The notes under the pieces: model-generated
What the model was told of the DNA's origin: nothing
What the model saw: only the letters and a program-made list of their open reading frames with translations
Database searches by the model: none
NCBI GenBank assembly: GCA_965197725.1
Contig: CBDANQ010000053.1
Span: 1-64,000 of the forward strand
DNA: 64,000 nucleotides
Direction of reading: 5' to 3'
Source of the DNA: Longimicrobiales bacterium
GTDB taxonomy: Bacteria > Gemmatimonadota > Gemmatimonadetes > Longimicrobiales > Gaopeijiaceae
Program-made: the position numbers and the translations under genes
Shown: positions 41,577 through 42,826 of the stretch, piece after piece
Layout: every line of letters starts with the position of its first letter
How positions within the stretch are numbered: position 1 is the first letter of the stretch

Positions 41577-41601
41577 GGCGGACAAGATGCTGGACAGCTG
41601 C

Positions 41602-42762
41602 CTTGTATGACGACGAATAGGTAGTTTCGTTGGGTACACAGGGTCGGTAGCCCGTCCCGCCTAGGGTCCTAGAGACCGATTGTTAGCGTGGGCGCCGTCC
41701 CTTCTAGATCGTGATGAGTCCGAACAGTTGTTGGGGCCGAGGGAGCCCGGATCTGCAAGGTAGGACGATGCACGATCATCCTCCCGAGTCTGGAGAGAGG
41801 GATGTCTGAGGCCGAGGCGTACGTAGGGATCGATGTCTCAAAGGCAGAGCTCGAGGTGGCGGTAGAAGACGAGGGGTGGACGGTCTCGAACGACGAATCT
41901 GGGATCGAAATGCTTGTTGAGCAGCTGTGCGAGCGTCCGGTTGAGCTAGTCGTTCTGGAAGCGACCGGCGGGTACGAGATGCCGGCGGCGGCGGCACTCG
42001 CCGAAGCGGGGATCCCGGTGGTGGTAGCGAACCCGCGGCAGGTGCGCGACTTCGCGCGGGCAACGGGCCAGCTCGCCAAGACGGACCGGATCGACGCGAG
42101 GGTATTGGCGCTGTTCGGCGAGCGGGTGCGGCCAGAGGTGCGGGTGCTGCCGGACGAGGACACCCAGCAGTTAACGGCCCTTCTGGCCCGTCGTCGTCAA
42201 CTGCTCGAGATGATGGTCGCGGAGAAGAACCGGCTGAAGATGGCGTCCACCACGGTGGCGAAGGACATCGGCGAGCACATCGAGTGGCTCAAGCGCAAGC
42301 TGAAGTCCGTGGACTCGGAACTCGAGCGTCGCATCAAGGCGAGCCCGGTGTGGCGCGCGAAGGAGGATCTGCTGCGGAGCGTACCGGGGATCGGTCCGGT
42401 CGTCTCACGCACGCTGATCGGAGAGCTCCCCGAGCTCGGGCAGCTGAACCGGCAACAGATCGCTGTGCTTGCCGGCGTCGCCCCTCTGAACCGGGACTCG
42501 GGTACGTTGAGAGGTAAGCGAATGGTCTGGGGAGGCCGTCGTTCCGTACGCGTGGCGTTGTACATGGCGGCCCTGACCGCTAGTCAGCGTAATCCCGCGA
42601 TCCGCGTCTTCTACCAGCGGCTCACAGAACGTGGCAAGCCTCCGAAAGTCGCCCTCACCGCCTGCATGCGTAAGTTGCTTGTGATCGCCAACGCTATGGT
42701 TCGAGACGGCGTATCCTGGGACCCCACCCACGCTTCAGAGCTTGAGTTCGCACACAGTTGCT
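41602..42762 (+). mobile_element. IS110-family element (IS621-like layout), bounded by CT cores
   Basis: CT|TGTAT left end, ACAGTTG|CT right end, ~200-nt left non-coding end, DEDD recombinase; no TIR or TSD. Confidence 0.9.
41612..41780 (+). ncRNA. Predicted IS110 bridge RNA (target-binding and donor-binding loops)
   Basis: Two stem/internal-loop/hairpin domains; guide segments match the donor junction and the flanking target. Confidence 0.8.
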
Positions 42763-42764
42763 GA
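41802..42764 (+). CDS. IS110-family transposase/recombinase
   Basis: [48 protein letters not shown]. Confidence 0.95.
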
Positions 42765-42826
42765 CAAGCCCTGAAGGCTGAAGAAGGCTGCTTTACCGCG
42801 TAGGCGGCTTCCCGCCTCGCATGGTC

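What the first reader, a model, noticed from the sequence alone, without database searches (positions are those of the whole stretch)
41595..42767. IS110 with a readable bridge RNA: guides match both its donor junction and its insertion site
Seen: joining the ends gives donor ACAGTTG-CT-TGTAT; the empty target is CAGCTGC-CT-GACAA. The left non-coding end folds into two domains. Target loop: stem 41640-41653/41690-41702, guides GTCCCGCCT (41654-62; last six match CTGCCT 5/6) and TTGTTAG (41680-86; pairs with CTGACAA, one wobble) around hairpin GGTC/GACC. Donor loop: stems GATCGTG/CACGATC and GTCC/GGAC, guides ACAGTTGTT (41724-32; 8/9 to donor) and TGCAAG (41754-59; pairs with CTTGTA, one wobble) around GGGC/GCCC. 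Known: this is the architecture of IS621-type RNA-guided bridge recombinases. Inference: a compact (320 aa), apparently intact orthologue with its own target specificity, a candidate programmable recombinase; preferred target predicted near GTCCCGC-CT-RACAA.
Basis: partly seen in the sequence, partly recalled or inferred. Interest (0 to 1): 0.9.

Follow-up and report, generated by a model that had tools for sequence, protein, structure and literature searches.

The report
IS110 element with readable bridge RNA

Summary
Window 41604-42762 is a 1.16-kb IS110-family insertion sequence bounded by CT cores (41602-3, 42761-2). It encodes a 320-aa DEDD/Ser recombinase (41802-42764). Upstream of the gene lies a bridge RNA with a 5' stem-loop, a target-binding loop and a donor-binding loop.

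The ends are fixed by two further full-length right ends, three further left junctions in the same genome, and unitig breaks in public runs.

The window alone supports only two guides. The left donor guide (8/9) and the right target guide (7/7 to the flank of the two sister copies) beat shuffles. The left target guide and right donor guide matches are at chance level. Comparison with about 60 related loci settles the rest:
- Stems covary (23 of 29 pairs with double changes).
- Right flanks follow the right target guide at positions 1-5 (46-52 of 53).
- Left flanks follow the left target guide, most strongly next to the core.
- Variant left donor guides match variant right ends (9 of 9).
- Handshake-guide variants track target position 7.

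A covariance model built without this element scores it at 107 bits. The protein matches solved IS621 and ISCro4 (E about 1e-40) and has all catalytic residues, plus a private A222V change.

Verdict: real and correctly interpreted. It is a new member of a known kind. Activity and RNA expression are untested.

The parts
41595..41601 (+). Left target half (LT) of this insertion, CAGCTGC
   Evidence: Flank differs between copies right up to the C before the CT. It matches the left target guide at 3 of 7 positions.
41602..41603 (+). Left copy of the CT core
   Evidence: Copies become identical at 41601/41602. A unitig starts at 41601.
41604..42762 (+). The insertion sequence, counted with its right-hand CT core (1159 bp)
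   Evidence: Sister copies lie at C52:17352-18519 and C27:2927-3994 (the latter interrupted).
41604..41638 (+). 5' stem-loop of the bridge RNA; it begins with the right donor half TGTAT
   Evidence: Minimum-energy fold. The stretch is variable and poorly alignable in relatives. A 5' stem-loop is part of the published consensus (PMC11208160, passages).
41642..41700 (+). Target-binding loop module: stem 41642-52 with 41691-700
   Evidence: Helix 99.3% paired, 8 of 9 pairs with changes on both sides in 50 sequences.
41654..41662 (+). Left target guide (LTG) GUCCCGC + core CU
   Evidence: Variable block between conserved stem and hairpin. Left flanks of relatives follow it, most strongly next to the core.
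41665..41677 (+). Hairpin inside the target loop (GGUC/GACC)
   Evidence: 96.5% paired; 2 of 4 pairs with double changes.
41680..41686 (+). Right target guide (RTG) UUGUU + core AG; exact complement of CT-AACAA
   Evidence: Two sister copies are followed by AACAAG and this copy by GACAAG, a G-U wobble. Flank positions 1-5 follow the guide in 46-52 of 53 insertions; position 6 in 12 of 53.
41687..41688 (+). Handshake guide of the target loop; C41687 can pair with donor position 7 (G42760)
   Evidence: Position assigned by analogy with IS621 nucleotides 81-82 (PMC11208158). The C is at least 90% conserved and donor G7 is invariant.
41707..41777 (+). Donor-binding loop module: outer stem 41707-13/41771-77, inner stem 41718-21/41763-66
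   Evidence: The inner stem is 97.5% paired. The outer stem is 68.8% paired, with 6 of 7 pairs showing double changes.
41724..41732 (+). Left donor guide (LDG) ACAGUUG + UU; identical to the right end ACAGTTG
   Evidence: In a non-circular test, 41 of 41 loci have a 7/7 match, including 9 with variant guides.
41734..41748 (+). Hairpin inside the donor loop (GGGC/GCCC)
   Evidence: 93% paired; 3 of 4 pairs with double changes.
41751..41759 (+). Right donor guide (RDG), read as AU..GCAAG; pairs discontiguously with CT-TGTAT
   Evidence: GCAAG and the upstream AT are nearly invariant, as is CT-TGTAT, so no covariation is possible. The pattern equals the discontiguous RDG of IS621 (PMC11208160, PMC11208158 passages).
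41760..41761 (+). Handshake guide of the donor loop; G41760 can pair with target position 7 (C41601). The two sister copies have A here.
   Evidence: SNP seen. In relatives, guide A goes with target T in 4 of 4 and guide G with target C in 46.
41802..42764 (+). Recombinase gene, 320 aa. Catalytic D11, E53, D95, D98, S233-G234. Private V222.
42742..42747 (+). Candidate -35 (TTGAGT). It would face a -10 (TATGAC, 41606-11) 17 nt away only when the ends are joined.
   Evidence: 8 of 12, the only candidate. TTGAC is conserved at this place in many relatives. Weak and inferred.
42754..42762 (+). Left donor half ACAGTTG + right copy of the CT core
   Evidence: Unitigs end at 42762.
42763..42767 (+). 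Right target half (RT) GACAA. Its first two bases complete the stop codon TGA (42762-4).

Best explanation
Window 41604-42762 is an IS110-family (IS110 group, IS621-like) insertion sequence with an uninterrupted gene and left end, and near-identical sister copies at other sites.

[quoted passage not shown] These specify a target near GTCCCGC-CT-AACAA. The donor-binding loop holds the left donor guide ACAGUUG and the right donor guide AU..GCAAG. These recognise the joined ends of the element, ACAGTTG-CT-TGTAT.

The 320-aa DEDD/Ser recombinase, loaded with this RNA, would exchange strands at the CT core to insert the circularised element.

Shown here: the ends, the RNA architecture and its conservation, guide-to-DNA covariation across relatives, and conserved catalytic residues.

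Inferred from IS621 work: transcription of the RNA (possibly from a promoter formed at the joined ends), a circular intermediate, and RNA-guided catalysis.
For: Ends:
- The genome holds 2 further full right ends and 3 further left junctions, with different flanks and the same CT-bounded ends.
- Unitigs of two runs break at 41601 and 42762.

Protein:
- Pfam DEDD_Tnp_IS110 (E 3e-25) and Transposase_20 (E 3e-18).
- NCBIfam NF033542 'IS110 family RNA-guided transposase', 230 bits against a cut-off of 140.
- IS621 (8wt6) at E 2.7e-40 and ISCro4 (9t56) at E 5.5e-41. D11, E53, D95, D98 and S233-G234 align with IS621 D11, E60, D102, D105 and S241-G242 (PMC11208158).

RNA:
- 50 left ends align.
- 90.8% of cells are paired, against 75.2% in shuffles.
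- 23 of 29 pairs show double changes, and 0 of 500 shuffles reach any of the five measures.
- Slid controls are 36-50% paired.
- A covariance model built from 43 relatives, without the window and its 4 closest kin, gives one hit in 64 kb: 41639-41780, + strand, 107 bits, E 2.5e-28.

Guides:
- Own genome: right flanks are AACAAG, AACAAG and GACAAG, against a predicted AACAA.
- Relatives: right flank positions 1-5 match the right target guide in 50, 52, 49, 48 and 46 of 53.
- The right flank mean is 4.85 of 6, against 2.61 for mismatched pairings, with 0 of 10000 permutations reaching it.
- The left flank mean is 3.70 of 7, against 2.37, with 0 of 10000.
- The exact guide-predicted CT+5 lies near the gene end in 41 of 61 loci. 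In all 41 it is preceded by 7/7 of that locus's left donor guide. This includes 7 loci with ACAGGTG, 1 with ACAGCTG and 1 with ACGGTTG.
- Handshake guide A goes with target T in 4 of 4, and guide G with target C in 46 of 55.

Mobility:
- Copies are 99.6-99.7% identical.
- The element sits on unitigs about 30 to 150 times deeper than this locus's flanks in two runs.
Against: - No RNA evidence proper. Contigs from RNA libraries cover 41600-42413, but they cannot show a transcript or its ends.
- No circle junction and no empty site was found.
- This copy's left flank matches the left target guide at only 3 of 7 positions, which is chance level on its own. Its right flank has one wobble.
- A better site, GTCACGC-CT-GACAA, is unoccupied in the genome.
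- The window copy carries V222, where both sister copies have Ala and 64 relatives have Ala, Thr or Ser (59, 3, 2). This copy's enzyme may be weakened.
- The junction promoter is weak, 8 of 12.
- No Rfam family reaches its threshold.
- I could not fetch IS621 DNA, so there is no direct RNA-to-RNA alignment with it.
Confidence: 0.93

Rival explanations
1. The element is of the bridge-RNA kind, but this particular copy is functionally impaired. It may be a fossil or a weak copy that moves only with help in trans from sister copies.
For: - It has a private A222V change at a position that is Ala, Thr or Ser in 64 of 64 relatives matched and Ala in both sister copies. The site lies 11 residues before the catalytic Ser.
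- In three public runs the contigs carry the sister allele at 42466.
- Other copies in the genome are knocked out by a second insertion sequence.
Against: - The reading frame is intact, all catalytic residues are present, and the bridge RNA is complete.
- This copy keeps the ancestral G at the donor-loop handshake guide, where the sister copies have A.
- Ala to Val is a conservative change.
Confidence: 0.2
2. Natural targeting in this clade is set mainly by the right guide plus the core-proximal bases of the left guide. The 14-nt target predicted by the reader would then overstate the real specificity.
For: - The left-flank match per position rises from 0.24 and 0.32 (positions 1-2, equal to background) to 0.90 (positions 6-7). 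All five right-flank positions match at 0.87-0.98.
- Own-genome left flanks match at 3, 5, 3 and 3 of 7.
- Half-match insertion has been reported for IS621 (bioRxiv 10.64898/2026.08.31.748434; abstract and outline seen).
Against: - Guides may have drifted after old insertions.
- Most data points are single insertions in metagenome bins.
- IS621 experiments show a preference for perfect matches at all positions (PMC11208160, passage).
- Some loci do match at 6-7 of 7.
Confidence: 0.35
3. The folded left end is only a 5' untranslated leader that regulates the recombinase gene, and the guide matches are coincidence.
For: The window copy's own matches for the left target guide, the right donor guide and the wobble right target guide are at chance level. 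RNA expression is not shown.
Against: - Loop sequences covary with flanking and terminal DNA across relatives, with 0 of 10000 permutations reaching the observed values.
- All 41 loci tested show the 7/7 donor-guide match.
- Handshake covariation is present.
- A leader has no reason to track DNA outside the element.
Confidence: 0.02

Closest known systems
IS621 of Escherichia coli (bridge recombinase; PDB 8wt6 and related entries)
   Same: - Same domain order, with DEDD and Ser-Gly catalytic residues aligned.
- RNA encoded in the left end, with a 5' stem-loop, a target loop and a donor loop.
- A 9-nt left target guide.
- A discontiguous right donor guide.
- Handshake guides.
- A CT core.
(PMC11208160 and PMC11208158, passages read.)
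   Different: - Protein similarity is distant: phmmer E 2.7e-40, covering residues 6-310.
- The right target guide covers 5 flank bases plus the core here, against a four-base guide in IS621.
- Donor positions 6-7 are T and G here, A and T in IS621.
- The guides specify a different target.
- The host is a GC-rich environmental bacterium whose relatives are Gemmatimonadota bins.
- The stop codon is completed by the target.
- I did not obtain IS621 DNA, so the RNAs were compared only through published descriptions.
ISCro4 transposase (PDB 9t56)
   Same: Best solved-structure match by sequence, E 5.5e-41 over residues 6-310.
   Different: I know it here only as a PDB chain name. Its RNA and ends were not examined.
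Unnamed orthologues in Gemmatimonadota and other metagenome bins (loci L006-L085)
   Same: - 47-86% protein identity.
- Same CT-TGTAT left end and the same RNA layout.
- The closest four (L006, L007, L008, L059) share the identical right target guide and left donor guide.
   Different: - The left target guide differs by at least one base (GTCGCGC or GATCCGT against GTCCCGC).
- Target flanks differ.
- The closest four lack the TTGA of the candidate -35.
Rfam RF02234 sX15 (Xanthomonas plasmid small RNA)
   Same: It is the only Rfam model to align end to end with the two-loop region (41626-41786). In its source organism sX15 is multi-copy and lies next to a gene start (PMC3300014, passages).
   Different: The match is on the opposite strand and far below threshold: 26.9 bits against 55, E 0.055. 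No relationship is established.

Membership tests
IS110 family, IS110 group (IS621-type bridge recombinase system) | N-terminal RuvC-like DEDD domain with all four acidic residues | tested here: met
   PF01548 at E 3.1e-25. D11, E53, D95 and D98 align with IS621 D11, E60, D102 and D105 (residue roles from PMC11208158).
IS110 family, IS110 group (IS621-type bridge recombinase system) | C-terminal Tnp domain with the catalytic Ser-Gly | tested here: met
   PF02371 at E 3e-18. S233-G234 align with IS621 S241-G242.
IS110 family, IS110 group (IS621-type bridge recombinase system) | NCBI curated model for IS110 RNA-guided transposases | tested here: met
   NF033542 at 230.3 bits against a cut-off of 140.
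IS110 family, IS110 group (IS621-type bridge recombinase system) | Element bounded by one core dinucleotide (CT) at each end | tested here: met
   Copy comparison, unitig breaks, and CT at both ends in the related loci. Absence of terminal inverted repeats and of a longer duplication was not tested with a repeat search.
IS110 family, IS110 group (IS621-type bridge recombinase system) | [quoted passage not shown] | tested here: met
   Fold, covarying helices, and a covariance model without this element scoring 107 bits. The 5' stem-loop rests on the single-sequence fold only.
IS110 family, IS110 group (IS621-type bridge recombinase system) | First internal loop pairs with both halves of the target, and loops covary with flanks | tested here: met
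   Right half is strong: 46-52 of 53 at positions 1-5. Left half is significant but graded: 0.24 to 0.90 per position. Own genome: right flanks match in 3 of 3 counting the wobble; left flanks match at 3-5 of 7.
IS110 family, IS110 group (IS621-type bridge recombinase system) | Second internal loop pairs with the joined ends (donor) | tested here: met
   Left donor guide: 41 of 41 loci at 7/7, including 9 variants. Right donor guide: complementary as in IS621, but both partners are invariant, so there is no covariation test.
IS110 family, IS110 group (IS621-type bridge recombinase system) | Handshake guides complementary to position 7 of the other substrate | tested here: met
   Guide A with target T in 4 of 4. 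Guide G with C in 46, with T in 4 and with A in 1, out of 55. In the window, C41687 faces donor G and G41760 faces target C.
IS110 family, IS110 group (IS621-type bridge recombinase system) | Promoter for the RNA reconstituted when the ends join | tested here: inconclusive
   The only candidate is TTGAGT-17-TATGAC, 8 of 12. No sigma-70-like site lies inside the integrated copy. TTGAC is conserved at the same place in many relatives but not in the four closest.
IS110 family, IS110 group (IS621-type bridge recombinase system) | RNA is made, binds the recombinase and directs recombination; circular intermediate | not testable with these tools
   Contigs from RNA libraries overlap the region but prove no transcript. 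No go-back joint was listed.
Any Rfam 15 family | Score at or above the family's gathering threshold | tested here: not met
   The best match is sX15 at 26.9 bits against 55, on the minus strand.

The most novel reading that the evidence does not exclude
In this mostly Gemmatimonadota clade, the division of labour between the guides may be shifted relative to IS621. A longer right guide (5 bases plus the core) and only the 2-4 core-proximal bases of the left guide would decide where the element lands. That would be a natural 'half-match' mode.

The right guide also dictates the AA or GA that completes the recombinase's stop codon. The protein would therefore end differently in the integrated and the circular state, gaining 5 residues in the circle.
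Probability: 0.3. Interest if true: 0.4.

Novelty: new member of a known kind. Interest (0 to 1): 0.3.

Why it matters
The finding shows that a bridge RNA can be read correctly from raw sequence. It also adds a well-documented natural orthologue with defined parts: ends, four guides, two handshake guides, sister copies that differ at a handshake guide and at residue 222, and about 60 relatives with covarying guides.

Such natural variation is useful for choosing and comparing bridge recombinases, and for asking how much of the left guide natural elements really use. It does not open a new question. The system type, its architecture and its programmability have been in print since 2024, and NCBI's annotation model already names the protein an RNA-guided transposase.

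Tried and rejected
1. Direct comparison with IS621 RNA. A blastn of a Xenorhabdus relative against complete E. coli genomes found only short matches. The best record is a different, frameshifted IS110 element, not IS621. My covariance model does hit its upstream region at 55 bits. No IS621 DNA was obtained.

2. Empty site. The left flank searched in 40 related genomes gave only a contig-end match and many partial repeats. Exact 30-nt left-flank and 29-nt right-flank patterns in the metagenome contigs gave 0 matches each.

3. Circle junction and transcription (four runs kept as contigs). No go-back joint was listed. The four 'skip' joints lie inside the gene, at low depth or with short sides, and I read nothing into them. 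Contigs from RNA libraries X15 and X16 overlap the element but cannot show a transcript. Parts without cover mean nothing.

4. Rfam: nothing reaches a threshold.

5. Promoter and terminator scan of 41450-42900: none found.

6. Earlier findings of this scan: none fit.

7. The idea that the four own-genome targets share a repeat was rejected. The flanks are unrelated. The repeats left of the window copy end 11 nt before the insertion point.

8. A single-copy argument for the left target guide and the right donor guide was rejected as being at chance level.

9. One search failed because I gave a wrong frame. It was corrected through.

Full report
**1. What is there**

- Left: CAGCTGC, then CT (41602-3), then TGTAT.
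- Right: ACAGTTG, then CT (42761-2), then GACAA.
- Between them lies one long frame, 41802-42764, of 320 aa.

The protein evidence:
- Pfam DEDD_Tnp_IS110 (E 3.1e-25) and Transposase_20 (E 3e-18).
- NCBIfam NF033542 'IS110 family RNA-guided transposase', 230.3 bits against a cut-off of 140.
- Among solved structures it matches ISCro4 (9t56, E 5.5e-41) and IS621 (8wt6, E 2.7e-40) over residues 6-310.
- D11, E53, D95, D98 and S233-G234 align with the residues given as catalytic for IS621: D11, E60, D102, D105 and S241-G242 (passages of PMC11208158).

**2. The ends are real**

The window's genome has 61 contigs, and the window is on C53. It holds these copies:
- A second full copy at C52:17352-18519.
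- A third at C27:2927-3994, whose left part is cut by another insertion sequence.
- Two left-end fragments, at C27:1358-1430 and C18:2457-2563.

The copies are 99.6-99.7% identical. They differ only at 41760, 41846, 42466 and at the flank base 42763.

| Junction | Flank sequences |
|---|---|
| Left flanks | CAGCTGC, GTACCAC, CCCAAGC, CGCACCC, each followed by CT |
| Right flanks, after CT | GACAAG, AACAAG, AACAAG |

In contigs of two public runs, unitigs start at 41601 and end at 42762. They are about 30 to 150 times deeper than the unitigs of this locus's flanks: about 150-165 against 5 in X1, and 400 against 2-3 in X3. Those depths sum all organisms in a sample, so they are not copy numbers.

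I found no empty site. Forty relatives and two exact-pattern scans of metagenome contigs gave none.

**3. The RNA**

The left end folds into a 5' hairpin and two long stem-loops with internal loops. The z-score is only -1.0, so the fold alone says little.

I collected relatives as follows:
- The protein recovered 80 related loci, the best 80 of 103 confirmed, mostly Gemmatimonadota bins.
- 63 of these have CTTGT[AG]T 150-260 nt before the gene, giving 52 distinct left ends.
- I aligned the window with 49 of them. L029, L071 and L073 were left out because their spacing is unusually long.

- 90.8% of cells are paired, against 75.2% in shuffles and 36-50% in slid controls.
- 23 of 29 pairs have changes on both sides.
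- 0 of 500 shuffles reach any of the five measures.

A covariance model built from 43 relatives, without the window and its four closest kin, gives:
- One hit in the 64-kb window: 41639-41780, + strand, 107 bits, E 2.5e-28.
- Four hits in the genome: two intact and two disrupted copies.

Rfam has no family that reaches threshold.

**4. The guides**

Right target guide:
- For 53 distinct insertions, flank positions 1-5 equal the complement of the locus's own guide in 50, 52, 49, 48 and 46 cases. Position 6 matches in only 12.
- These 53 come from 54 of 61 loci. The rest lacked an exact right end or enough flank.

Left target guide:
- The left flank matches at 3.70 of 7 on average, against 2.37 for mismatched pairings.
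- For both halves, 0 of 10000 permutations reach the observed mean.
- Per position, the left match rises from 12 of 50 (position 1) to 45 of 50 (positions 6 and 7).

Left donor guide, tested without circularity:
- In 41 of 61 loci, the guide-predicted CT+5 occurs exactly near the gene end.
- In all 41, one occurrence is preceded by 7 of 7 bases of that locus's left donor guide.
- This includes the nine loci whose guide departs from ACAGTTG.
- Two further occurrences, in L019 and L027, are not so preceded.

Handshake guide:
- The base after the right donor guide tracks target position 7. A goes with T in 4 of 4. G goes with C in 46, with T in 4 and with A in 1, out of 55.
- This is the handshake guide described for IS621 (PMC11208158).

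Right donor guide:
- Both the guide and its partner CT-TGTAT are nearly invariant, so they cannot covary.
- Read as AU, two skipped bases, then GCAAG, it reproduces the discontiguous nine-on-seven pairing reported for IS621 (PMC11208160, PMC11208158).

**5. This copy in particular**

Against the window alone, only two matches beat 5000 dinucleotide shuffles:
- The left donor guide at 8/9, reached by 29 shuffles.
- The 7/7 complement to CT-AACAA, reached by 67 shuffles.
- Both together are reached by 0 shuffles.

The window copy's own matches are at chance level:
- Left flank 5/9.
- Wobble right flank 6/7.
- Contiguous right donor guide 5/7.

Further points on this copy:
- The genome has 127 CT-[AG]ACAA sites and none with a perfect left half. 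The best, GTCACGC-CT-GACAA on C52, is empty.
- The window copy keeps G at 41760, which pairs with target C7. Both sister copies have A.
- The window copy alone has V222. The sisters have Ala, and 64 relatives have Ala (59), Thr (3) or Ser (2).
- The contigs of three runs carry the sister allele at 42466.

**6. Further anatomy**

- The stop codon is made of the core T plus the first two target bases: TGA here, TAA in the sister copies.
- With the ends joined, the frame would run on for five codons.
- The only promoter-like pair across the joined ends is TTGAGT (42742), a 17-nt spacer, then TATGAC (41606), scoring 8 of 12.
- Many relatives have TTGAC at the same place, but the four closest do not.
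- The integrated copy contains no sigma-70-like site.

**7. Comparison and verdict**

The layout, guide lengths, discontiguous right donor guide, handshake guides, CT core and catalytic residues are those of the IS621-type bridge system. I read passages of PMC11208160 and PMC11208158, and the abstract and outline of bioRxiv 10.64898/2026.08.31.748434. I opened no supplements.

Differences from IS621:
- Distant protein similarity.
- A longer right guide.
- T and G rather than A and T at donor positions 6-7.
- Its own target.
- A target-supplied stop codon.

The element is a new member of a known kind. RNA expression, the circle and catalysis are inferred, not shown.

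Noticed in passing
window 36641-38132; G000 C27:1431-2926, C18:965-2456: A 1.5-kb IS1182/IS5-like element sits in roughly 40 copies in the genome. Its best NCBIfam match, IS1182, scores 186 bits, below the cut-off of 270. 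Its ends are CAGTCCGTGG...CCACGGTCTG, flanked by CTAG. It has landed inside this IS110's bridge-RNA region at the two CTAG sites, 41669-72 and 41704-07, disrupting the C27 and C18 copies. C27 lacks 41673-41700, and the right side of C18 is unrelated DNA. That points to recombination between copies or to assembly chimeras.
   Followed up: partly
window 41626-41786, minus strand: Rfam sX15 (RF02234, a Xanthomonas plasmid small RNA) aligns end to end with the two-loop region. The score is weak, 26.9 bits at E 0.055, and the match is on the opposite strand. In its source paper, sX15 has an antisense partner and 10 homologues in a Stenotrophomonas chromosome. It may therefore be the non-coding end of an IS110-type element.
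   Followed up: partly
window 41430-41515 and 41526-41590: The DNA left of the insertion is a mosaic of two short repeats, found in many places in this genome and in relatives. By eye, they look like conserved 5' ends of gene families read on the minus strand. One is the start of the 40663-41505 gene. The other resembles a protein-kinase N-terminus. The repeats stop 11 nt before the insertion point.
   Followed up: partly
L034:1240-1300 (also L035; double CTTGTAT hits in L052 and L036): A 60-nt left-end fragment that ends exactly at the left target guide's CT lies directly in front of a full copy. The DNA that encodes the left target guide seems to have served as the left half of a target, a form of self-targeting. 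In that subgroup, the bases after the guide (AGGGG) also resemble the target its right guide specifies (AGGGT).
   Followed up: partly
window 42762-42764: The recombinase stop codon straddles the recombination point: the core T plus two target bases. The same arrangement holds in the relatives whose protein match runs to the query's last residue, which mostly have AA after the core. In the joined-ends form, the frame would add LYDDE.
   Followed up: partly
runs X1 and X3 laid on window 41300-43100: Unitigs of the element are about 30 to 150 times deeper than those of this locus's flanks. Fourteen runs hold about the element's share of the sampled words, and all 20 holder runs come from 11 studies. 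A contig from an RNA library shows yet another left flank, ending ...TCCCGGC before CT. The element is thus widespread and multi-copy beyond this genome bin.
   Followed up: partly
L086:761-902 (E. coli NZ_CP027550.1, 325168-325309, minus strand): The covariance model built here scores 55 bits (E 4.5e-12) just upstream of a frameshifted 'IS110 family transposase' pseudogene in an E. coli chromosome. That decayed element still carries a recognisable bridge-RNA region.
   Followed up: no
L054:1291-1500: One relative's left end contains the segment CCCGAACAGTTGCC twice, about 20 nt apart. This is a local duplication of the left-donor-guide segment.
   Followed up: no
loci L006 (Acidimicrobiia bin), L059 and L007 (Gemmatimonadota bins): The closest relatives, at 80-86% protein identity, sit in bins assigned to different phyla. 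This means either transfer between phyla or mis-binning of short contigs.
   Followed up: no
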